Under the pieces are notes generated by a model. It did not search any database. It was not told the DNA's origin and saw only the letters and a list, made by a program, of their open reading frames with translations. A stretch of 64,000 bases of DNA, from the sequence record NC_028881.1; one strand, 5' to 3'. Positions 5,968 to 62,574 of this stretch are shown here, in pieces; within the stretch, counting starts at the first letter, position 1, and every line of letters begins with the position of its first letter. The translations under genes and the position numbers were made by a program. Source of the stretch: Escherichia phage vb_EcoM-VR5.

Positions 5968-6009
5968 TTTGATAGGGTAATCTTATCACTACCCTATCTT
6001 GTTGTACAC
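5968..6009 (-). promoter_or_regulatory. early-promoter family member (variant)
   Basis: GTGTAC ... TAAGAT with gatagggta/taccctatc inverted repeat. Confidence 0.4.
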
Positions 6010-6620: not shown

Positions 6621-6660
6621 CCATGAGAGCCATTATAACATGGCTCTCGATAAAGTAAAC
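6621..6660 (-). promoter_or_regulatory. early promoter (-35 GTTTAC, 17 nt, -10 TATAAT)
   Basis: consensus hexamers; gagagccat/atggctctc inverted repeat around -10. Confidence 0.55.
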
Positions 6661-6662
6661 TA

Positions 6663-7412
6663 TTAGTTCAAAACATTCACAACTGCACTACGAGGTACTA
6701 CACTAAAATCACCAGCATGGACAACATTCAGAAGCTCAACGCCATCTTCAATCCATTGGTCTGTTACCCACCCACAGATAGGATTATCAAAAGGACGACG
6801 GACGCTTACTGGCTTACACAACAAATCGGTAGGGTCTTGTTCGACTTCGACTTCACGGAAAAGGCCGAATTCAGCTTCGTAAACCAGGATTTTCTCTATT
6901 TTGTTATTGTCTAAACGACGGCCGTGGATGACGTAAGATTTAGTAAACCAGTTACTTTTTGTAAAGTCTTCAACAATAAATTCGCCTTCGCCAAAAACAT
7001 CAGTCAGAGTTTTATGACCGGAAATCAAGGCATTAGTTTTAATTTCAGGTTCAACCAGTTTGTAGGTTTTGCCGATTTCAATAGCGATAGTCATAGTTGT
7101 TTCCTTAATTTCCAGTGGTTTAACAGGGCATACATAAGTGCTTACAACATCAAAATCGATAAGCTGCTTTGGAGCTAAACGAATAAAGGCAGCCATTTCT
7201 CGTTGCGACAATCGAATAGTATGTATATCCGGAACACCACATTCTTGAACTGTTACAGATTTAATATTATCAAGCTCATCAGGTCCAATAGAAAGAATAC
7301 GGAACTCGTTGCCTTTAGTCATCTTTTTAAGGAGGTCATAAGCTTGGTTGTAGAGCTTAAGTTCAGAGTACGGGGTAACGATGTATTTGGCATTCAGATC
7401 GAAAGTATTCAT
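6663..7412 (-). CDS. hypothetical protein (249 aa), C-terminal domain paralogous to previous gene
   Basis: ORF; C-terminus VTDQWIEDGVELLNVVHAGDFSVVPRSA. Confidence 0.65.
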   Translation of the reverse strand: MNTFDLNAKYIVTPYSELKLYNQAYDLLKKMTKGNEFRILSIGPDELDNIKSVTVQECGVPDIHTIRLSQREMAAFIRLAPKQLIDFDVVSTYVCPVKPLEIKETTMTIAIEIGKTYKLVEPEIKTNALISGHKTLTDVFGEGEFIVEDFTKSNWFTKSYVIHGRRLDNNKIEKILVYEAEFGLFREVEVEQDPTDLLCKPVSVRRPFDNPICGWVTDQWIEDGVELLNVVHAGDFSVVPRSAVVNVLN

Positions 7413-7918
7413 AATTGTCTCATTTCAATAAAATCTACGAGTTCAGCATGGGATTTGCGGAACATTACTTGGTGGTCACCAATGACAACCTCATCTTCAG
7501 GTATTTCGTAAACGGCAAGATAGAATCCTTTAGAAGATAATTCTTCTCGCTCTTCACGACTGAACCAGCGCATCATATCATACTCGCTGGCAAAAGCAAA
7601 ATGATAGAGATGAACAAACCAACTAGGTATATAGTTATCTACACCATTATAATCAGGGCGACCCCACTTAGTATTAATTGCTCTATTAGAATTCGCAACC
7701 AACAATTTATCTTGGGATGGTACCGGGATATTTTTAGTATTGCTATGGTGGTGTCTAAAATCAGGTTTATTATAACCCGCTTCTAATAACCATCCTTCAC
7801 TCCACTCGTCGAATAATCCGCTATATGGTGTTAACTGACGACTCGCCTGTCGGGTGATTGTGATACCGTTTCTGTCATCTAAAACACTGAATGATGATTC
7901 AACTCTATAAATTTTCAT
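7409..7918 (-). CDS. hypothetical protein (169 aa)
   Basis: ORF with promoter motif and RBS GAGGAGAA upstream; ATGA overlap with downstream gene. Confidence 0.65.
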   Translation of the reverse strand: MKIYRVESSFSVLDDRNGITITRQASRQLTPYSGLFDEWSEGWLLEAGYNKPDFRHHHSNTKNIPVPSQDKLLVANSNRAINTKWGRPDYNGVDNYIPSWFVHLYHFAFASEYDMMRWFSREEREELSSKGFYLAVYEIPEDEVVIGDHQVMFRKSHAELVDFIEMRQL

Positions 7919-7931
7919 TTTGTTCTCCTCA

Positions 7932-7972
7932 TGTTGATAGGGCTATAGTATCATGTCATGAGGAGAAGTAAA
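7932..7972 (-). promoter_or_regulatory. early promoter family member with SD/anti-SD inverted repeat
   Basis: GTTTAC...TGATACTATAGCCCTATCAAC; ttctcctcatg / catgaggagaa. Confidence 0.55.
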
Positions 7973-7977
7973 CACTT

Positions 7978-12034: not shown

Positions 12035-12076
12035 GTTGATAGAAAGATAGTAACACGAGCCTCCTTTCTCGTAAAC
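12035..12076 (-). promoter_or_regulatory. early promoter family member upstream of modA
   Basis: GTTTAC...TTACTATCTTTCTATCAAC. Confidence 0.5.
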
Positions 12077-12645
12077 TAAAAATCCAACATTTTTAAATGA
12101 ATTGTTTTGTACTCGATTTCGTATGGGTCTCTTTTGATAGTTTCGATTTCTACAATCTCGAACCGTGATAGACTAGAGACCATGAATTCACATTCAGTTT
12201 CAACCATATCATAGAGGTCAATACGGGTTTCATCTATTTCAAGCCCATCCACGTTCCCTGCAAGAACAAGGTCAATAGCGTGATTATAGTAGTCAAAAAT
12301 GAAAGGTGCATTCCTGAGACTTAAGATGGTTTTGGTCCCGTACTCCCAAGCCCCTGCGAACTGACGAGCTTGGGAATATTGAGTACTAAAAGAAGTGACC
12401 CGACCTGGAGACCACTGACACCCAACAGAAAGAACTTCAAGTTGTTCAAGTTCTCTAGGGGTAATCCCACGATAAAGCTCTACCGGAACTGCTGAAGTAA
12501 CATGCTTACGAACTAGTTTGTCTAGGTCGTAATGGAAGTTAGGGTCTTTTTTGGCATCTAGACATTTTTCTAAGATGGCCTGTTCTGATTTTGAGAATTT
12601 GGAATTGATTCTGTCTTGATAAAGACATTTTTGCTCGATGTTCAT
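12076..12645 (-). CDS. modB: ADP-ribosyltransferase, ModB-like
   Basis: 189-aa ORF; LYRGI, SFS, ETECE motifs; RBS GGAGG. Confidence 0.7.
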   Translation of the reverse strand: MNIEQKCLYQDRINSKFSKSEQAILEKCLDAKKDPNFHYDLDKLVRKHVTSAVPVELYRGITPRELEQLEVLSVGCQWSPGRVTSFSTQYSQARQFAGAWEYGTKTILSLRNAPFIFDYYNHAIDLVLAGNVDGLEIDETRIDLYDMVETECEFMVSSLSRFEIVEIETIKRDPYEIEYKTIHLKMLDF

Positions 12646-12654
12646 ATGACCTCC

Positions 12655-12699
12655 GGTGATTTAGAGGTCATTATAACATGAAGAGAAGGGATGTAAAAC
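12655..12699 (-). promoter_or_regulatory. early promoter variant upstream of modB
   Basis: -10 TATAAT followed by GACCTCTAAATCAC. Confidence 0.45.
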
Positions 12700-14385: not shown

Positions 14386-14619
14386 TTAAACAATATCAGT
14401 AGGCGTAAACATTGCCTCGTTTTTGGTCTTCCAGTCAGCAGCATCAGTCACTACAGTTGAGTAGGCCGCTACCGCCGAAGGGAAAGTCTGATAATGAGCA
14501 TTAGCAATACGATGTGCATTAGAATAGATTTCAAACGGAACAGAAACCTCGGTACCTTTAACTTCTTTACCTACACCAGCTGCATGCGTGAAGGTTTTAA
14601 TATTAACGAAACCACCCAT
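14386..14619 (-). CDS. soc: small outer capsid protein
   Basis: 77-aa ORF; GFVNIKTF...HYQTFPS..AAYSTV matches my recollection of T4 Soc; TATAAATA late promoter upstream; terminator downstream. Confidence 0.85.
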   Translation of the reverse strand: MGGFVNIKTFTHAAGVGKEVKGTEVSVPFEIYSNAHRIANAHYQTFPSAVAAYSTVVTDAADWKTKNEAMFTPTDIV

Positions 14620-14650
14620 AATAAACTCCTTTGTTGTTTAATTACAGGTG

Positions 14651-14658
14651 TATTTATA
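14651..14658 (-). promoter_or_regulatory. late promoter TATAAATA upstream of soc
   Basis: exact TATAAATA on minus strand about 30 nt before soc ATG. Confidence 0.5.
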
Positions 14659-14661
14659 TCA

Positions 14662-15183
14662 TTAATAACCTCGGTCCTGACGAGCAAAGTTCTCGGCATT
14701 TTTCAGGTAATACAGTTTAAAGATTTCTTCAGCAGTAAGTCCAAGACCCTGGAACATGTTCAGAACGAAATGGAGAATATCAATCATTTCAAATTTAATT
14801 TCGAGCTGGTCTTCAGGAGAGAGTTCGTCGATACGACGATTACGGAATTCAGCATGCTGAGCTTTCCAAGGCTTCCAGCAACTTGAAGCAGCTTTCTCAC
14901 CATTGCTCATACCACCAAGAGAAGTCAGAAGTTCACGGAATTCATCATCAATATAATCTTTCTGATTACGCAGCCAATCAACAACTTCACCTGCAGTAGC
15001 CAAATCATCAGGGTGACGGTTATATTCAGGTTTATCTTTAGCCAAACGGACCTGTAAAGATTTCTGCATATCAAGCATAACCTGCAGTGGGTCTTTATCT
15101 TCGTGAATCAAGGCATTAAAATAAGCTTCCTCAGCTTTATCAACGCCAGCAATCAAACCACTACACTCATTAAAATGTGCCAT
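14662..15183 (-). CDS. 56: dCTP pyrophosphatase (gp56, MazG-like)
   Basis: 173-aa ORF; size and position as T4 gene 56; RBS AGGAAA. Confidence 0.8.
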   Translation of the reverse strand: MAHFNECSGLIAGVDKAEEAYFNALIHEDKDPLQVMLDMQKSLQVRLAKDKPEYNRHPDDLATAGEVVDWLRNQKDYIDDEFRELLTSLGGMSNGEKAASSCWKPWKAQHAEFRNRRIDELSPEDQLEIKFEMIDILHFVLNMFQGLGLTAEEIFKLYYLKNAENFARQDRGY

Positions 15184-16105: not shown

Positions 16106-17130
16106 ATCTTGGAATATTTTGAAAGTCGCATTTTTGCCATTAAACCTTGTGCGATATTCTCTTTCATATAAGAAAGGACATCGTTTATATTGGCTTTATC
16201 TTTCATAACCATATCATTTATATCTTTAGAAGGCCATGGAGCCTTGTCCCAGAATAGAACCCTTTCACCGGCATCAACTAGACGTTGCATACGCTTAATT
16301 GTGTCAGGATGACGGGGTTCATTGTCCATTACCCATGCTCTTGTTTCTTTACATGGAACTATTGATAAGTCTAACGACCCACCAGTAATTGCTATTGCAT
16401 TAGGTACAAATAATGAATCTATAGGACCTTCCATTACCCACACCAACTGGCGTTCATCTATCGTATCCATTCCATATATTTTTGTAGCTTGGTCGTGAGC
16501 TTTAATTGTAATATATTTTTGCGGGGCATCTTTACGTAAAGCTCGACCCTGAAAGCTTTCAATTTGTTTATCCTTATTAAAAATAGGAATAACCAAACGA
16601 GGCTCAGGTATTTCTTTAGAATAGGTTCCTGGATTCACTGAGTTAACCAGCGCCGGCCACTCTTTCGTAAACCATAGTCTATTCCATTTGTTTTCGGGGA
16701 TGCATCGCAGAGTTACATATTTGATAATAGGATGGTCTTTAGGCATTCTATCTAATCGTTCACAGAAATTAAGCTTTTCGATGACAGGCATCTTAGCTTT
16801 AATTTTTTCAGATATCTCCACCTTAGGTGTAGCTTGTCTCCCGAACGATTGCTCTTTATGTTTCTCAAGAATATATTCTCGATATAAATCTGGCTCATAT
16901 TCGTATAGATACTTCTTAATTCCTGCTGAATAGTCACAATTAAAACAATGCAACATAATAGAACCATCGTTAGCCGGGTAAGCCCAAAATCGAGCTTTGT
17001 TCTCATCTTTTTGTGAGTCACCACATACACGACAACGACAGTTTAATTTAAAATCACTACCGGTTACTTGTCTGAATTTAGGTTGGTAATTCAAGGCACG
17101 TACAGCAAATTCTTTATCGACATATGACAT
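16102..17130 (-). CDS. 61: DNA primase (gp61)
   Basis: 342-aa ORF; zinc-binding CxxC...CxxC and TOPRIM region; length as T4 gp61. Confidence 0.9.
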   Translation of the reverse strand: MSYVDKEFAVRALNYQPKFRQVTGSDFKLNCRCRVCGDSQKDENKARFWAYPANDGSIMLHCFNCDYSAGIKKYLYEYEPDLYREYILEKHKEQSFGRQATPKVEISEKIKAKMPVIEKLNFCERLDRMPKDHPIIKYVTLRCIPENKWNRLWFTKEWPALVNSVNPGTYSKEIPEPRLVIPIFNKDKQIESFQGRALRKDAPQKYITIKAHDQATKIYGMDTIDERQLVWVMEGPIDSLFVPNAIAITGGSLDLSIVPCKETRAWVMDNEPRHPDTIKRMQRLVDAGERVLFWDKAPWPSKDINDMVMKDKANINDVLSYMKENIAQGLMAKMRLSKYSKI

Positions 17131-17141
17131 TATTTTTCCTT

Positions 17142-17168
17142 GGGCTCTAAATTAATAGAGCCATTATA
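17142..17168 (-). promoter_or_regulatory. extended -10 promoter (TGATATAAT) with adjacent hairpin upstream of gene 61
   Basis: -10 plus ggctcta/tagagcc stem. Confidence 0.4.
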
Positions 17169-17330
17169 TCATTCGTTTTTGGATTTTTCTTTACGCTTTT
17201 TAGATGGGATTTGTTCAGGCCCTTTGTTGACGACTGCGCCTGAGGTAGTTCCGGAGGCAATATTAGATGGATTTCCACCCGCATCACCGGCGACCATATC
17301 TTCGTTCACGAACTCTTTATATGTTTTCAT
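17169..17330 (-). CDS. small late protein with internal-protein-like capsid targeting sequence (53 aa)
   Basis: hand-translated MKTYKEFVNEDMVAGDAGGNPSN...KKRKEKSKNE; N-terminus like ipII/ipIII MKTY(Q/K)EFI; perfect TATAAATA plus SD AGGAG upstream. Confidence 0.55.
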   Translation of the reverse strand: MKTYKEFVNEDMVAGDAGGNPSNIASGTTSGAVVNKGPEQIPSKKRKEKSKNE

Positions 17331-18484: not shown

Positions 18485-18526
18485 TTTGATAGGTCTATAG
18501 TATCTCAACCATAGACCGTTGTAAAC
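18485..18526 (-). promoter_or_regulatory. early promoter family member
   Basis: GTTTAC...GATACTATAGACCTATCAAAAC. Confidence 0.55.
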
Positions 18527-19410: not shown

Positions 19411-19422
19411 TTTGTTCTCCAA

Positions 19423-19463
19423 GTTGATAGGTCTATAGTATCATGCTTACAGGAGAAGTAAAC
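19423..19463 (-). promoter_or_regulatory. early promoter family member
   Basis: GTTTAC...TGATACTATAGACCTATCAAC. Confidence 0.55.
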
Positions 19464-39382: not shown

Positions 39383-39453
39383 AATAATTTCCTCAGTTTA
39401 TTAAAATTTATAATCCGTAGGACCATTATACTCTGGTCCCAAGAGTTTGTAAA

Positions 39454-39957: not shown

Positions 39958-40212
39958 TTACCTCAGCAGTTTGTATCCAATAAGATTTTTGATATACTGA
40001 ATATCTTTGATATCCAAATCCAACTTAAGGTCTTTCAGACGTTCAGCCAGAGTAAGAAATGTTACTCGCTTCCAATTTTTAACAGGGCAGCAATAAGTCT
40101 TAGGCCCATTTGCAATTTCAATATTTTTATCTGTGATGGTGAGAAAAATCAGGCGCTCATCATCAAGGTTCAGGGTGATGACATTTTTCATTGCATGTAA
40201 TTTCAGGCTCAT
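39958..40212 (-). CDS. hypothetical protein (84 aa)
   Basis: ORF. Confidence 0.5.
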   Translation of the reverse strand: MSLKLHAMKNVITLNLDDERLIFLTITDKNIEIANGPKTYCCPVKNWKRVTFLTLAERLKDLKLDLDIKDIQYIKNLIGYKLLR

Positions 40213-40391
40213 GATTTAATTTCCTTTGCTACTGAACAAAACACAGAGCGGTCACACACCATCAACGGGGCATCAGGCCAATTCAAAGGTTGATACCAGA
40301 CATCCAGACTTGATACTTTAGTTACTTGAACAGGATAGCCGTTTACTGAAAAATACTGGTCAACTTTAATTTCTTTATCTTGAATAGTCAT
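40209..40391 (-). CDS. hypothetical protein (60 aa)
   Basis: ORF with promoter motif upstream. Confidence 0.5.
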   Translation of the reverse strand: MTIQDKEIKVDQYFSVNGYPVQVTKVSSLDVWYQPLNWPDAPLMVCDRSVFCSVAKEIKS

Positions 40392-40407
40392 AATGTTCTC
40401 CTCATGT

Positions 40408-40449
40408 GTTGATAGGATAGACTATAACACACAAGGAGAGGAAGTAAAC
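40408..40449 (-). promoter_or_regulatory. early promoter family member
   Basis: GTTTAC ... TATAGTCTATCCTATCAAC. Confidence 0.5.
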
Positions 40450-46870: not shown

Positions 46871-47395
46871 TTATGCGAGAACCGTCTTTAAACGCTCTTC
46901 AAATTTCTGAAGCAGAGCTTGGCGTTCAGCTCGTTGTGATTTGTACTGCTCGATACGTCCTGAAGTGAGGGCGTACTGTTCGTTTACTGATTCCCGCATA
47001 AATTCAGGAATTTCTTTACAAGCTTTGATTTCGTCAAACTTATCAATAACCGCTTGTTCCTCGGCAATCAGATTATCGAAATAAGCGATATCTGATTTAA
47101 CGTTTGCCAGGTCAGATTCGGTAGGCATTAAACGTTTGTTACGTTCAGATTGATAAGCTTGGTTGGTTTCACGACTCCAGTGAAGAGTACGTTTTTTGTT
47201 AGTATTTTTATAGAGCTCTACAATACCTACTGAATCGATGATAGCAATCCAGTTCCAACGGCTTTTGTAAATCTCTCCTCCAGATACGGTAATCTCATTT
47301 CCACAAGCAACATCGTTAAAGAACTTGCTTTGTTTTTCAGATTTAAAATTACCGTTATTAAAATTAATCAGTGAAAAAATATCTTTAGCGTTCAT
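46871..47395 (-). CDS. hypothetical protein (174 aa)
   Basis: ORF; promoter motif and RBS GGAGG upstream. Confidence 0.6.
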   Translation of the reverse strand: MNAKDIFSLINFNNGNFKSEKQSKFFNDVACGNEITVSGGEIYKSRWNWIAIIDSVGIVELYKNTNKKRTLHWSRETNQAYQSERNKRLMPTESDLANVKSDIAYFDNLIAEEQAVIDKFDEIKACKEIPEFMRESVNEQYALTSGRIEQYKSQRAERQALLQKFEERLKTVLA

Positions 47396-47409
47396 GTTAA
47401 CCTCCAGTA

Positions 47410-47450
47410 GTTGATAGGTCTATAGTATCATTCCTACTGGAGATGTAAAC
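47410..47450 (-). promoter_or_regulatory. early promoter family member with SD/anti-SD inverted repeat
   Basis: cctccagtag / ctactggag flanking TGATACTATAGACCTATCAAC. Confidence 0.55.
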
Positions 47451-48865: not shown

Positions 48866-48891
48866 CCAAAAAAGGAACCCGAAGGTTCCTT
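48866..48891 (-). terminator. rho-independent terminator
   Basis: aaggaacc-ttcg-ggttcctt + TTTTTT. Confidence 0.6.
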
Positions 48892-52098: not shown

Positions 52099-52115
52099 AA
52101 TGTTCTCCTCATTAG

Positions 52116-52155
52116 TTGATAAGTCTATAGTATCATGTTCCTAGAGGATGTAAAC
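52116..52155 (-). promoter_or_regulatory. early promoter family member
   Basis: GTTTAC...TGATACTATAGACTTATCAAC. Confidence 0.55.
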
Positions 52156-52162
52156 ACCTAAA

Positions 52163-52191
52163 CGAAAAAAGGTCCCACCGAAGTGAGACCT
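52163..52191 (-). terminator. rho-independent terminator
   Basis: ggtctcac-ttcg-gtgggacc (one mismatch) + TTTTTT. Confidence 0.5.
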
Positions 52192-52195
52192 TTGA

Positions 52196-56074: not shown

Positions 56075-56533
56075 TTAAAGATAGATTACTTTCGTGCTAG
56101 TTTTACCTTCTAAACGTTTAGAGTTAACAAATGCCATACGACATTTTAATGAATATCCTTTATCAGGATGTTTACGATCTACAGTCATACCTAACCATAA
56201 GGTTTTATCGGTAATCTCGAGACGCAGTGGACGATACACTTTACCTGGGACAATTTCAGATTCTACATCAGGCAGAGGTTCCTGGATTAAAAATTCATGG
56301 ATTTCTTTAACATGGTTATGGAGTTGCTTGAATAAAGCAAAAACGTATTTTTCGTCAATTTCACGTTGGATAGCACGGTCCAATAGGTGATTAGAGTACT
56401 TAATAAAGAAAGCTGGGACTCCACTCTTAATGGCGGCTTTTTTGATGGATGTATTCAGTTCACGAAATTCGGTTTCGAACTGACGACGTAATTTGTTGCG
56501 GCGGATGAATACTTCTGAATTAATTTCTGACAT
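56075..56533 (-). CDS. regB: endoribonuclease RegB-like
   Basis: 152-aa ORF; N-terminus EVFIRRNKLRR resembles recalled T4 RegB; position relative to denV. Confidence 0.6.
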   Translation of the reverse strand: MSEINSEVFIRRNKLRRQFETEFRELNTSIKKAAIKSGVPAFFIKYSNHLLDRAIQREIDEKYVFALFKQLHNHVKEIHEFLIQEPLPDVESEIVPGKVYRPLRLEITDKTLWLGMTVDRKHPDKGYSLKCRMAFVNSKRLEGKTSTKVIYL

Positions 56534-56548
56534 TTTGTTTCTCCTGTA

Positions 56549-56589
56549 GTTGATAGGTTTATAGTATCATGCCTACAGGAGATGTAAAC
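56549..56589 (-). promoter_or_regulatory. early promoter family member with SD/anti-SD inverted repeat (upstream of regB)
   Basis: tctcctgtag / ctacaggaga flanking TGATACTATAAACCTATCAAC. Confidence 0.55.
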
Positions 56590-58226: not shown

Positions 58227-58643
58227 TTATGCATAAATCGCCTTACTGTAATATTTATACCAGGTAGGGCGTTGTGCAATTTTTTCGTCTAAACGGGCCT
58301 GTGATATAACGATAGAAGCTTCATGGGGGATATAATCACCACGGAATTCCTGAGGAATATCACTAATATCCTGGACTGTAGTATCCTTGATATTAAACCC
58401 ACGTTTTAGACATTCGTCTATAAGCTCAATTTGACGTTTACGTAAGAACTCGAGCTTATCGTAAAAGAATGTAACATGACCTGTGCCAAGGATAAAAGTA
58501 GGACTGATTTTAAAATCACGAACCCGTTTACCATTAGCAACATGCTTACGAACTGCACCAAAAACACGTGGTAATTCACGATATTCGGCCATTAAGTGTT
58601 GGTCAGCCAATTCAGATACTAAAGTAAGGTTGATACGAGTCAT
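58227..58643 (-). CDS. denV: endonuclease V (pyrimidine dimer DNA glycosylase)
   Basis: 138-aa ORF, same length as T4 DenV; N-terminus MTRINLTLV. Confidence 0.88.
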
Positions 58644-58658
58644 TTTAATCTCCTGTAG

Positions 58659-58698
58659 TTGATAGGTCTATAGTATCATACCTACAGGAGATGTAAAC
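58659..58698 (-). promoter_or_regulatory. early promoter family member with SD/anti-SD inverted repeat (upstream of denV)
   Basis: atctcctgtag / ctacaggagat flanking TGATACTATAGACCTATCAAC. Confidence 0.55.
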
Positions 58699-59754: not shown

Positions 59755-59794
59755 AACTGTGAATATAGTATCATGACCACAGATCAAAGTAAAC
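59755..59794 (-). promoter_or_regulatory. early promoter family member upstream of ipIII
   Basis: GTTTAC ... TGATACTATATTCAC. Confidence 0.5.
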
Positions 59795-59798
59795 AAAT

Positions 59799-60293
59799 TT
59801 ATAGATTTTTATACGCGTCCCAAGTGCCAGTTCTAAACGTTGCAATGACTCGCTTAGCTCGGTTGGGGGTCTGTTTGTACCAACGAGATTGCGCTAGGTT
59901 AACTGCGGCCTCATCCCAACGTTTTTGTTGGAGCATACGAAGAGAGTTAGTAAATCCTGCTACACCAGCTTCACCCATTTGGAAGACCATATTAATTAGT
60001 GCGCAACGACGAACTTCGTCAAGCACATCATAAACAGGTTTCAATTTAGGATTACGCAAAATAGCCCTACGAGCATTTTCCACTGAACGATTAAAGAGTT
60101 GTTCTGCTTCAGTCATTGTAATACGACCATTACAAACTCGACCCATAAGTTTATCAAGTTCAGCACGAGCAACATCTTTAGAAGGATTCTTGGTTATCAA
60201 TTGGCCGATGCCAATAGTCCAATAACCTTCGGTGTCTTTATAAAGATTTAAATCAAGACCTTCGTCTTGACGTAACATATCAAAAATATCCAT
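59799..60293 (-). CDS. e: lysozyme (endolysin, T4 e)
   Basis: 164-aa ORF; catalytic-region motifs of T4 lysozyme ([11 protein letters not shown], ...[10 protein letters not shown]...[10 protein letters not shown]). Confidence 0.92.
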
Positions 60294-60319
60294 AATACCT
60301 CCTGAGTATAGGAGGTATT
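60294..60319 (-). promoter_or_regulatory. SD-sequestering hairpin upstream of lysozyme gene e
   Basis: aatacctcc-(8 nt)-ggaggtatt perfect 9-bp stem containing GGAGG immediately before ATG; AATAAATA late-promoter-like element abuts it. Confidence 0.55.
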
Positions 60320-62534: not shown

Positions 62535-62574
62535 TTGATAGGTCTATAGTATCACACCTATAGACCTTGTACAC
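62535..62574 (-). promoter_or_regulatory. early promoter family member (variant -35 GTGTAC)
   Basis: ggtctatag / ctatagacc inverted repeat around TGATACTATAGACCTATCAAAAC. Confidence 0.5.

What the first reader, a model, noticed from the sequence alone, without database searches (positions are those of the whole stretch)
58648..58698. Early-promoter family in which the spacer is the reverse complement of the downstream Shine-Dalgarno region
At least 20 minus-strand sites share -35 GTTTAC, a 17-nt spacer and an extended -10 core TGATACTATAGACCTATCAAC (for example 7932-7972, 18485-18526, 19423-19463, 40408-40449, 47410-47450, 52116-52155, 56549-56589, 58659-58698, 62535-62574). In several, the spacer just after -35 is a perfect 9-11 nt inverted repeat of the SD region just before the ATG, and the pairs co-vary (atctcctgtag/ctacaggagat at denV and regB, cctccagtag/ctactggag at 47410, ttctcctcatg/catgaggagaa at 7932). 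Co-variation implies selection for pairing: read-through transcripts from upstream would hide the SD in a hairpin, while transcripts starting at the local promoter would lack the anti-SD arm.
Basis: seen in the sequence. Interest (0 to 1): 0.7.

Follow-up and report, generated by a model that had tools for sequence, protein, structure and literature searches.

The report
Early promoters inside ribosome-site-masking hairpins
In this T4-like phage, several early genes (denV, regB and others) have their own promoter sitting inside an RNA hairpin that would hide the ribosome-binding site on transcripts arriving from upstream but not on transcripts started at that promoter; this looks like an early-gene mirror image of the known T4 lysozyme control, and it recurs across T4-like phages.

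Summary
The window comes from a JS98-like T-even phage. The promoter family is real: there are 19 minus-strand GTTTAC-N16-18-TAnnnT sites where 2.6 are expected. Only 9 of them share the extended core, not 20. A strong spacer/SD inverted repeat (-18 to -19.5 kcal/mol) occurs at five sites: denV, regB, 47450, 40449 and 7973. A sixth site (12698, modB-like) places the 5' arm over the -10/discriminator. Two further copies are degenerate.

Folding predicts that opening the SD..AUG region costs 9-16 kcal/mol more in read-through RNA than in promoter-proximal RNA, which is essentially unstructured.

Comparative data support selection for RNA pairing. All 33 T4-like denV loci with such a promoter mask the SD, using at least 10 different helices. 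alc, modB, motB.2 and regB also show helix turnover. Internal mismatches in the helices are 33 G.U against 5 A.C.

In T4 itself, 11 of 41 early-type promoter leaders behave this way.

The principle is known for late-promoter genes (e, soc, 49, I-TevI; e and soc are in this window). Promoter/stem-loop cassettes are known as PeSLs. The early-promoter, "early-only translation" version did not appear in the literature I could read.

No transcript-end or translation data were available, and a generic role for the hairpins is not excluded.

The parts
58648..58698 (-). denV promoter/hairpin cassette (the finding): the whole element from the -35 to the end of the 3' arm
   Evidence: RNA fold -19.4 kcal/mol, z = -3.6, 0/200 shuffles fold as well.
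58693..58698 (-). -35 hexamer GTTTAC of the denV early promoter
58682..58692 (-). 5' (anti-SD) arm ATCTCCTGTAG, the first 11 nt of the 17-nt spacer
   Evidence: Duplex with the leader -18.7 kcal/mol, 0/500 shuffled spacers reach it.
58670..58675 (-). -10 hexamer TACTAT, preceded by an extended -10 TG; lies in the hairpin loop
58663..58663 (-). Predicted transcription start (A, 7th nt after the -10). Inferred, not mapped.
   Evidence: Geometry of sigma-70 promoters is from established knowledge.
58648..58658 (-). 3' arm CTACAGGAGAT, containing the denV Shine-Dalgarno GGAG
58227..58643 (-). denV (endonuclease V) coding sequence
   Evidence: PHROG 1183, E = 8e-62.
56540..56589 (-). regB promoter/hairpin cassette. 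Arms TCTCCTGTAG (56573-56582) and CTACAGGAGA (56540-56549); regB CDS 56075-56533.
   Evidence: Opening cost +9.3 kcal/mol in read-through RNA.
47400..47450 (-). Cassette upstream of a 174-aa gene of unknown function (CDS 46871-47395). Arms ATCTCCAGTAG and CTACTGGAGGT.
   Evidence: Opening cost +15.0 kcal/mol.
40397..40449 (-). Cassette upstream of a 60-aa gene (CDS 40209-40391). Arms TCTCCTTGTGTGTT and AACACATGAGGAGA, with two G.U pairs.
   Evidence: Opening cost +15.8 kcal/mol; fold -22.3 kcal/mol.
7923..7973 (-). Cassette upstream of the motB.2 ortholog (CDS 7409-7918). Arms TTCTCCTCATG and CATGAGGAGAA.
   Evidence: Opening cost +12.0 kcal/mol.
12646..12698 (-). modB-like (ADP-ribosylase) promoter with a -10/discriminator-type mask. 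5' arm ATGACCTC (12664-12671) overlaps the -10; 3' arm GAGGTCAT (12646-12653) covers the SD up to the AUG. CDS 12076-12645.
   Evidence: Opening cost +13.4 kcal/mol.
52106..52155 (-). Degenerate copy (TCCTC/GAGGA only), directly downstream of an intrinsic terminator at 52168-52193
19415..19463 (-). Degenerate copy (TTCTCC/GGAGAA with a bulge), downstream of a terminator
60291..60319 (-). Gene e (lysozyme) leader hairpin AATACCTCCT..AGGAGGTATTATG: the known late-promoter version of the same device, in the same window
   Evidence: -17.2 kcal/mol; PF00959. Described in PMC3014915 section 29.

Best explanation
These are T4-type early (sigma-70) promoters built inside an RNA hairpin.

How it works:
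- The 5' arm is an anti-SD sequence. It lies in the promoter spacer, or in some genes over the -10 and discriminator.
- The 3' arm is the gene's own Shine-Dalgarno region.
- RNA that starts at an upstream promoter and reads through carries both arms. It folds into a hairpin of -18 to -22 kcal/mol that buries the SD, so the gene is poorly translated from such RNA.
- RNA that starts at the local promoter begins between the arms. It lacks the 5' arm and has an open SD.

The net effect is that translation of denV, regB, modB-like, motB.2 and some unknown genes is tied to the firing of their own early promoter. This gives 'early-only' translation and insulates the gene from transcription coming from upstream genes. 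It is the mirror image of T4 gene e, where a late promoter sits inside the hairpin.

What is shown: the sequences, the predicted thermodynamics, conservation with helix turnover, and the sense-RNA signature.

What is inferred: the start sites in this phage, that read-through RNA actually arrives, and the size and biological purpose of the translational block.

The cassettes also behave as copyable modules (PeSL-like), which explains the near-identical copies.
For: Energetics:
- Strong, non-random spacer/SD duplexes at 5 sites, plus one -10/discriminator-type site.
- Opening the SD..AUG region costs 12.4-19.6 kcal/mol in read-through RNA and 2.7-3.8 kcal/mol in local RNA.
- Local leaders are unstructured.
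- The hairpins are as stable as the gene e hairpin in the same window, a structure shown experimentally in T4 (-17.2 kcal/mol; PMC3014915).

Specificity within the window:
- SD occlusion of 8 kcal/mol or more occurs in 5 of 21 promoter-bearing genes and 1 of 61 others (Fisher p = 0.004).

Conservation:
- At denV, all 33 T4-like loci with a GTTTAC-type promoter pair the SD core with bases upstream of the predicted start (P = 0.6-1.0). They use at least 10 different helices and two arm positions.
- denV promoter regions pair better with their own leader than with other phages' leaders (p < 5e-5).
- This holds although the gene upstream of denV belongs to at least 8 unrelated IP families or is lysozyme.
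- Helix turnover with retained masking is also seen at alc (3 helices), modB (2), motB.2 (2) and regB.
- An unmasked control gene stays unmasked in all 6 orthologs.

Level of selection:
- 33 G.U against 5 A.C inside 37 distinct helices (p = 4e-6).
- A conservative formal count gives 85.9% of cells paired against 38-53% when partners are slid, with 9 double-sided changes (0/500 shuffles).

Generality:
- In T4, 11 of 41 early-type promoter leaders have ddG of 7.5 or more: alt.-3, alc, ndd.4, nrdC.8, regB, modB, 30.8, motB.2, denV, e.8 and gene 1.

Coupling unlikely:
- The upstream stop codon ends 1-9 nt before the -35, so the first paired base is at least 9 nt past the stop. That is at or beyond the reach of a terminating ribosome (plus established footprint sizes).
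Against: - No 5'-end, structure-probing or translation data could be consulted for this phage. A T4 dRNA-seq start-site table exists but is not held as text.
- Hairpins that enclose the -10 but not the SD show the same G.U excess (17 against 3) and are enriched about twofold over shuffled spacers. A more general RNA function for promoter-enclosing hairpins therefore exists.
- On the unbiased window + T4 set, full coverage of the SD by the 3' arm (11 full, 3 partial, 9 none) is not significantly above uniform placement (p = 0.16).
- Masking is not universal among orthologs. Some regB loci and the RB69-like loci of the 47450 gene have only the -10-enclosing hairpin.
- The expected negative association with upstream terminators is not significant (p = 0.71).
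- Part of the apparent covariation inside the window is cassette copying: the denV and regB cassettes are nearly identical.
Confidence: 0.6

Rival explanations
1. Generic intergenic RNA hairpin. The selected function is something other than SD masking, for example a 3' barrier that stabilises the upstream cistron, a processing site, or an attenuator of read-through (the PeSL reading). The 3' arm then reaches the SD only because leaders are about 22 nt long.
For: - Hairpins that enclose the -10 without touching the SD are enriched (36 against 17 of 156 sites) and show G.U well above A.C (17 against 3).
- Orthologous sites switch between SD-masking and non-masking hairpins.
- The positional test is not significant.
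- The PeSL papers report terminator-like activity of such stem-loops in phi1 (PMC2839356).
Against: - The SD-masking hairpins lack a U tract, so they are not intrinsic terminators.
- denV is masked in 33 of 33 loci by at least 10 helices and never by a non-masking hairpin alone.
- The compact -10/discriminator-type helices cover the SD and the AUG, like classical translational operators.
- Whatever else it does, a -18 to -22 kcal/mol helix over the SD must hinder initiation.
Confidence: 0.2
2. DNA-level element only. The inverted repeats are recombination linkers, cruciforms or protein-binding palindromes of mobile promoter cassettes (PeSL modular shuffling), kept perfect by copying or by quasipalindrome correction, with no RNA role.
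For: - Nine near-identical core copies are dispersed in the window.
- The JS98-group regB carries the denV-type cassette, whereas T4 regB carries a different one.
- The same CTCCGTTTG/CAAACGGAG cassette sits at denV in one phage group and at alc in another.
- The PeSL literature proposes this role.
Against: - The strand asymmetry of mismatches (33 G.U against 5 A.C) is not expected for a double-stranded DNA palindrome.
- Helices differ completely between orthologs while the pairing is kept.
- Arm position moves between the spacer and the -10/discriminator.
- Cassette mobility can coexist with an RNA function.
Confidence: 0.07
3. Translational coupling. The hairpin blocks independent initiation, but ribosomes finishing the upstream gene melt it. 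The downstream gene would then be translated from read-through RNA in proportion to upstream translation.
For: - Upstream ORFs end only 1-9 nt before the -35 at all six masked sites.
Against: - The first paired base lies 9-29 nt beyond the stop codon, and the AUG lies 54-64 nt beyond it.
- That is at or outside the reach of a terminating ribosome, and far for re-initiation (established ribosome footprint sizes; inference).
Confidence: 0.08
4. Protection from RegB. Pairing hides the GGAG of the SD from the phage RegB nuclease, stabilising long transcripts.
For: - RegB is inhibited by secondary structure.
- Sixteen RegB-resistant T4 GGAG sites lie in stable intergenic structures (PMC1702504).
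Against: - The hidden SD could not be used for translation anyway.
- The T4 denV SD is RegB-resistant for sequence reasons on the unstructured RNA.
- Masking is found in many phages and genes whether or not the RegB consensus is present.
Confidence: 0.05

Closest known systems
T4 genes e, soc, 49 and I-TevI: an SD/AUG-sequestering hairpin with a promoter inside its 5' arm (McPheeters et al. 1986 and later work; reviewed in PMC3014915 section 29)
   Same: The logic is the same. Long transcripts from upstream carry both arms and are poorly translated (about 100-fold for gene e). Transcripts from the promoter embedded in the hairpin lack the 5' arm and are translated. Hairpin stability is comparable. 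e and soc, with their hairpins, are in this window.
   Different: In the known cases the embedded promoter is a late one (TATAAATA, gp55), and the effect is 'late-only' translation of a gene in an early region. Here the embedded promoter is an early sigma-70-type promoter, the 5' arm sits in the spacer or over the -10/discriminator, and the predicted effect is 'early-only', own-promoter-only translation. The review lists no early-promoter example.
PeSLs (promoter-early stem-loops) of T4-type phages (Arbiol et al. 2010, PMC2839356; Comeau et al. 2014, PMC4122927) and the IP-locus elements of Repoila et al. 1994
   Same: Both are composite, repeated intergenic cassettes made of an early promoter, a stem-loop, and the SD and ATG of the next gene. 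The stem may lie between the -35 and -10 or overlap the -10. They are found in plastic regions, including the IP loci next to denV. There is evidence here of cassette exchange between genes.
   Different: PeSL stem-loops are interpreted as terminators/attenuators and recombination linkers. The word 'translation' does not occur in the 2010 paper. For PST/T4, the boxed stems are upstream of the promoter. The SD-masking helices here have no U tract, include the SD as one arm, and carry an RNA-level (G.U) signature.
T4 early promoter consensus (GTTTAC -35, extended -10, A/T-rich upstream region)
   Same: The -35 GTTTAC, the 17-18-nt spacer, the TG-extended TAnnnT -10, the A/T-rich upstream sequence, and the position before early genes all match (Nolan et al. 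2006).
   Different: The consensus descriptions I could read treat the spacer as non-informative. They do not mention complementarity to the SD.
Terminator-promoter composites of KVP40/nt-1-type phages (PeSL with an A3-4G3-loop-C3T3-4 stem)
   Same: They occupy the same position upstream of denV in jumbo relatives and deal with the same problem, transcription arriving from upstream.
   Different: There a true terminator hairpin overlaps the -35 and the SD stays free. The T-even type lets RNA through and blocks its translation instead.

Membership tests
T4-type early promoter | -35 GTTTAC, 16-18-nt spacer, -10 TAnnnT with an extended TG | tested here: met
   19 minus-strand sites against 2.6 expected. 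TG precedes the -10 at the focal sites.
T4-type early promoter | A/T-rich (UP-like) sequence upstream of the -35; located just 5' of an SD and ORF in the transcribed orientation | tested here: met
   The 12 nt upstream of the -35 are A/T-rich at the focal sites. Every curated site is followed by an SD and ATG.
T4-type early promoter | Primary 5' ends mapped at about +7 from the -10, early in infection | not testable with these tools
   No data for this phage. T4 denV mRNA was analysed by primer extension (PMC1702504). A T4 dRNA-seq start-site set exists but its table is not held.
Hairpin-with-promoter-inside translational control (T4 e / soc / 49 / I-TevI type) | SD and/or AUG lie in a stable helix in transcripts from upstream | tested here: met
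   Predicted only. Folds of -18 to -22 kcal/mol. Opening cost 12-20 kcal/mol in read-through RNA against about 3 in local RNA.
Hairpin-with-promoter-inside translational control (T4 e / soc / 49 / I-TevI type) | The proximal promoter starts RNA downstream of the 5' arm | tested here: met
   The 5' arm lies between the -35 and the predicted +1 at all six sites and in 33 of 33 denV loci. Start sites are predicted, not mapped.
Hairpin-with-promoter-inside translational control (T4 e / soc / 49 / I-TevI type) | The embedded promoter is a late promoter (TATAAATA) | tested here: not met
   The embedded promoter is of the early sigma-70 type. TATAAATA occurs 4 times in the window, none at these sites. 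Hence a variant, not a member of the described set.
Hairpin-with-promoter-inside translational control (T4 e / soc / 49 / I-TevI type) | Measured reduction of translation from long transcripts | not testable with these tools
   Needs reporter fusions or ribosome profiling.
PeSL (promoter-early stem-loop cassette) | Repeated composite of an early promoter plus a stem-loop in intergenic space, ending with the SD and ATG | tested here: met
   9 copies of the extended core. Stem-loops at 24 of 50 promoter contexts in the window + T4 set.
PeSL (promoter-early stem-loop cassette) | The stem-loop acts as a terminator/attenuator (G+C-rich stem, T run) | tested here: not met
   The SD-masking helices have no T run and are not picked up by the terminator scan. 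Separate UUCG-loop terminators precede other promoters.
PeSL (promoter-early stem-loop cassette) | Cassettes mediate exchange between loci and phages | tested here: inconclusive
   Consistent with it: regB carries the denV-type cassette in the JS98 group but not in T4, and the same cassette is found at denV and at alc in different phages. No recombination junctions were analysed.
Rfam RNA families | Match to a curated covariance model | tested here: not met
   0 hits at gathering thresholds across the window.

The most novel reading that the evidence does not exclude
About a quarter of T-even early promoters are not just promoters. They are RNA-level translational gates, conserved by function while their sequence turns over. 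The gates confine synthesis of a defined set of early proteins to transcripts from their own promoter, and several of those proteins are host-directed or nucleic-acid-modifying enzymes (RegB, Alc, ModB, DenV). More broadly, the stem-loops of T-even 'PeSL' cassettes would be selected as sense-strand RNA structures rather than as DNA recombination linkers. That would call for a re-reading of these elements, and it would help explain the reported decoupling of T4 transcript and protein timing.
Probability: 0.45. Interest if true: 0.65.

Novelty: new variant of a known kind. Interest (0 to 1): 0.55.

Why it matters
T4 is the reference system for temporal gene control in phages. The 2010 review of its post-transcriptional control lists only late-promoter examples of SD-sequestering leaders and notes little recent progress. 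A 2022 omics study reports that T4 transcripts and proteins are temporally decoupled and leaves the role of the SD and of RNA structure open.

If the early-promoter hairpins work as predicted, they would:
- give a simple, sequence-readable rule for which early genes are translated only from their own promoter;
- explain why compact T-even intergenic regions tolerate massive read-through;
- change how PeSL cassettes are interpreted;
- matter for phage engineering, because moving or deleting such a promoter would silence or deregulate the downstream gene.

The idea can be tested directly with existing T4 dRNA-seq data and with simple reporter fusions.

Tried and rejected
- **Whole-structure strand comparison.** Comparing G.U counts and folding energy between sense and antisense strands was uninformative (26 against 29 G.U; p = 0.93). 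I replaced it with a symmetric test restricted to the helices.
- **Terminator association.** I expected masking to be absent where a terminator precedes the promoter. Both degenerate copies fit this, but the association is not significant on the window + T4 set (p = 0.71).
- **Positional test for SD targeting.** The first run used a sample biased toward genes I had picked because they were masked, so I discarded it. The unbiased version is not significant (p = 0.16).
- **MAFFT alignment of the spacer-type cassettes (A1).** It could not hold the 3' arms in one register because the helices sit at different offsets. The formal pair count was therefore run only on the compact -10/discriminator-type denV hairpins (A2), and it is conservative.
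- **Late-promoter search.** I looked for TATAAATA upstream of the IP genes to support 'late read-through into denV'. There is no exact consensus there, so that part remains inference.
- **Papers I could not read.** Miller et al. 2003 (PMC150520) and Repoila et al. 1994 (PMC395341) are not held. The T4 start-site table is not held as text.
- **Explanations rejected.** An intrinsic terminator (no U tract), chance (shuffles), and known Rfam families.

Full report
**What the window is.** The ORF downstream of the finding is endonuclease V (denV), and the next cassette precedes the RegB endoribonuclease (PHROG hits). The DNA is about 88% identical to JS98/JS10/QL01-type T-even phages over this stretch. 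An IMG/VR genome of 170,473 bp encodes identical DenV and RegB. So this is a JS98-like relative of T4, not T4 itself. On the minus strand the gene order is e (60293-59799), a promoter at 59794, two internal-protein genes (59710-59141 and 59007-58708), the promoter at 58698, then denV (58643-58227).

**The observation.**
- GTTTAC-N16-18-TAnnnT occurs 20 times, 19 of them on the minus strand, against 2.6 expected.
- The extended core TGATACTATAGACCTATCAAC occurs only 9 times at 3 or fewer mismatches, not 20.
- I curated 23 minus-strand promoter/leader pairs and computed the duplex between each spacer and its leader.
- Five pairs are strong (-17.8 to -19.5 kcal/mol; 0 of 500 shuffled spacers reach them): 58698 denV, 56589 regB, 47450, 40449 and 7973.
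- Two pairs are weak remnants (52155, 19463). Sixteen are at chance level.
- Spacers pair better with their own leader than with the other sites' leaders (permutation p = 0.00125).
- A sixth masked site, 12698 (modB-like ADP-ribosylase), has its 5' arm over the -10 and discriminator instead of in the spacer.

**Predicted consequence for RNA.** I compared RNA starting 60 nt upstream of the -35 with RNA starting at the predicted +1. The energy needed to open the SD..AUG region is 12.4-19.6 kcal/mol in the long RNA and 2.7-3.8 kcal/mol in the short RNA at the six sites. At the other promoters the difference is -2.2 to +4.7 kcal/mol. The hairpins fold at -18 to -22.3 kcal/mol (z = -3.3 to -5.8), and the promoter-proximal leaders at 0 to -0.6. 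Among 82 crudely called minus-strand genes, occlusion of 8 kcal/mol or more by upstream sequence occurs in 5 of 21 promoter-bearing genes and 1 of 61 others (Fisher p = 0.004).

**Built-in positive controls.** The window contains gene e. Its leader hairpin (60319-60291, -17.2 kcal/mol) is the classical case of an SD hidden in early read-through RNA and exposed in RNA from an embedded late promoter. The window also contains soc, with TATAAATA at 14658-14651 (PMC3014915 section 29). The early-promoter hairpins are at least as stable as the e hairpin.

**Comparative evidence.**
- I fetched 37 myovirus denV loci and T4 itself. In all 33 with a GTTTAC-type promoter, the SD core is paired (probability 0.6-1.0) with bases upstream of the predicted start.
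- In 19 of them the 5' arm is in or at the start of the spacer. The arms differ between groups: CTCCTGTAG/CTACAGGAG, CCTCCAAG/CTTGGAGG, CTCCGTTTG/CAAACGGAG, CTCCTGTG/CACAGGAG.
- In the other 14 the arm is over the -10/discriminator, for example TATGATGTCTTCC/GGAGGACATCATG.
- denV promoter regions pair better with their own leader than with other phages' leaders (p < 5e-5).
- The gene upstream of denV is one of at least 8 unrelated IP families, or lysozyme, so masking follows denV.
- Four of the five jumbo-phage relatives (L023, L025, L026, L033) instead have a true terminator overlapping the -35 and a free SD; the fifth (L030) has no recognisable promoter and no hairpin.
- T4 denV has the same cassette as the window. 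T4 regB has different arms, TTTTCCTCTTGAC/GTTAAGAGGAGAA, giving 13 bp with 2 G.U.
- motB.2 (the window's 7973 gene), alc and modB also keep masking with different helices in different lineages. An unmasked control gene (44871) stays unmasked in all 6 orthologs.
- Masking is not universal. Some regB loci and the RB69-like loci of the 47450 gene have only a hairpin around the -10.
- A conservative formal count on the compact denV hairpins gives 85.9% of cells paired against 38-53% when partners are slid, with 9 double-sided changes (0 of 500 shuffles).

**At what level pairing is selected.** I searched for helices while allowing both G.U and A.C as internal mismatches, so the search is symmetric. 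It finds 37 distinct SD-containing helices with 33 G.U and 5 A.C (p = 4e-6). This argues for sense-strand RNA pairing and against a double-stranded DNA palindrome. One alc variant differs from its relatives only by a G.U to A-U switch.

**How general it is.** Across the whole T4 genome, 41 genes are preceded by an early-type promoter, and 11 of them have a read-through-minus-local opening cost of 7.5 kcal/mol or more. They are alt.-3, alc, ndd.4, nrdC.8, regB, modB, 30.8, motB.2, denV and e.8, plus gene 1, whose promoter has a MotA-box-like TGCTT.

**What weakens the SD-specific reading.**
- Hairpins that enclose the -10 without touching the SD are twice as frequent as with shuffled spacers (36 against 17 of 156 sites). 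Examples in the window are at 62566-62541, 18517-18492, 5997-5972, 6648-6625 and 39441-39418.
- Those hairpins show the same G.U excess, 17 against 3. There is therefore a wider RNA-level selection for promoter-enclosing hairpins.
- On the unbiased window + T4 set, 3' arms cover the SD fully in 11 helices, partly in 3 and not at all in 9. Uniform placement predicts 7.0, 5.6 and 10.4 (p = 0.16).
- The association with upstream terminators is not significant (p = 0.71), although both degenerate copies do sit behind terminators.
- Part of the within-window 'covariation' is cassette copying. The denV and regB cassettes are near-identical here but not in T4.

**Translational coupling.** The upstream stop codon ends 1-9 nt before the -35. 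The first paired base is therefore 9-29 nt past the stop, and the AUG is 54-64 nt past it. That is at or beyond the reach of a terminating ribosome, so coupling by melting seems unlikely. This is an inference from established ribosome footprint sizes.

**What the literature says.**
- Promoter-plus-stem-loop cassettes (PeSLs) are described for RB49/phi1 and for PST/T4, and similar elements at the T-even IP loci (Repoila 1994). They are read as terminators and recombination linkers. Translation is not discussed.
- The T4 post-transcriptional review lists e, soc, 49, I-TevI and homing-endonuclease genes as inhibitory leader structures. None has an early promoter.
- Durand et al. 2006 studied denV mRNA by primer extension and note that RegB-resistant GGAG sites often lie in intergenic stem-loops.
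- From memory, and not verified here, Valerie et al. 1986 (NAR 14:8637) remarked that sequences preceding ipIII, ipII, denV and tk can form stem-loops.
- I could not read Miller et al. 2003 or Repoila et al. 1994, so an earlier statement of the early-promoter version cannot be excluded.
- Rfam has no family here.

**Verdict.** It remains untested experimentally. It is best described as an early-promoter variant of the known T4 'promoter inside an SD-masking hairpin' device, carried on PeSL-like cassettes.

Noticed in passing
window 62541-62566, 18492-18517, 5972-5997, 6625-6648, 39418-39441 (minus strand): A second class of early-promoter hairpin. The -10-proximal spacer pairs with the bases just after the -10 (e.g. 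GGTCTATAGG/CTATAGACC, GAGAGCCAT/ATGGCTCTC), which puts the -10 in the loop and leaves the SD free. These fold at -14 to -22 kcal/mol. Across held sequences such helices are about twice as frequent as with shuffled spacers and show G.U 17 against A.C 3. Their function is unexplained.
   Followed up: partly
window 14600-14700 (minus strand): soc (Pfam PF16855, ATG 14619) is preceded by the late-promoter consensus TATAAATA (14658-14651). Read-through RNA has a 7.8 kcal/mol higher SD-opening cost. This is the known soc case, seen here in a JS98-like phage.
   Followed up: partly
window 52168-52193, 48872-48891, and upstream of the promoters at 19463, 14345 and 2781: Intrinsic terminators directly abut the next early promoter, 10-15 nt upstream of the -35, forming terminator-promoter composites. 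Four of the five have cUUCGg tetraloops; the one upstream of 2781 has a GCAA loop.
   Followed up: partly
L023, L025, L026, L033 (about 345-378-kb phage contigs), roughly 30-70 nt upstream of denV: In jumbo relatives the denV promoter's -35 (TTGAC) lies inside a terminator hairpin (GGGTTGACTTCGGTCAGCCC followed by a T run), and the SD is not masked. This is the nt-1/KVP40-type PeSL.
   Followed up: no
L008/L009/L019/L020/L036 (upstream of denV) and L140/L146 (upstream of alc): The same helix type (ATCTCCGTTTG / CAAACGGAGAT) precedes denV in one phage group and alc in another. This suggests that whole promoter/hairpin cassettes move between genes.
   Followed up: no
window about 17130-17220 (minus strand): A 342-aa ORF (ATG 17130) without a GTTTAC promoter has TGATATAAT followed by a GGCTCT/AGAGCC hairpin next to its SD, with 10.9 kcal/mol extra opening cost in longer RNA. 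It is possibly a middle-type promoter with the same design.
   Followed up: no
L111 (JS98 genome), upstream of the ortholog of the window's 47450 gene: JS98 itself has ATCTCCATTAG instead of ATCTCCAGTAG in the 5' arm. This is an uncompensated mismatch that weakens the hairpin to -12.8 kcal/mol.
   Followed up: no
L141, L142, L145 (RB69-like), upstream of alc: These loci combine a terminator-like hairpin that has the -35 (GTGTAC) in its loop with a -10/discriminator-type SD mask (ATGGTTCC/GAGGACCA).
   Followed up: no
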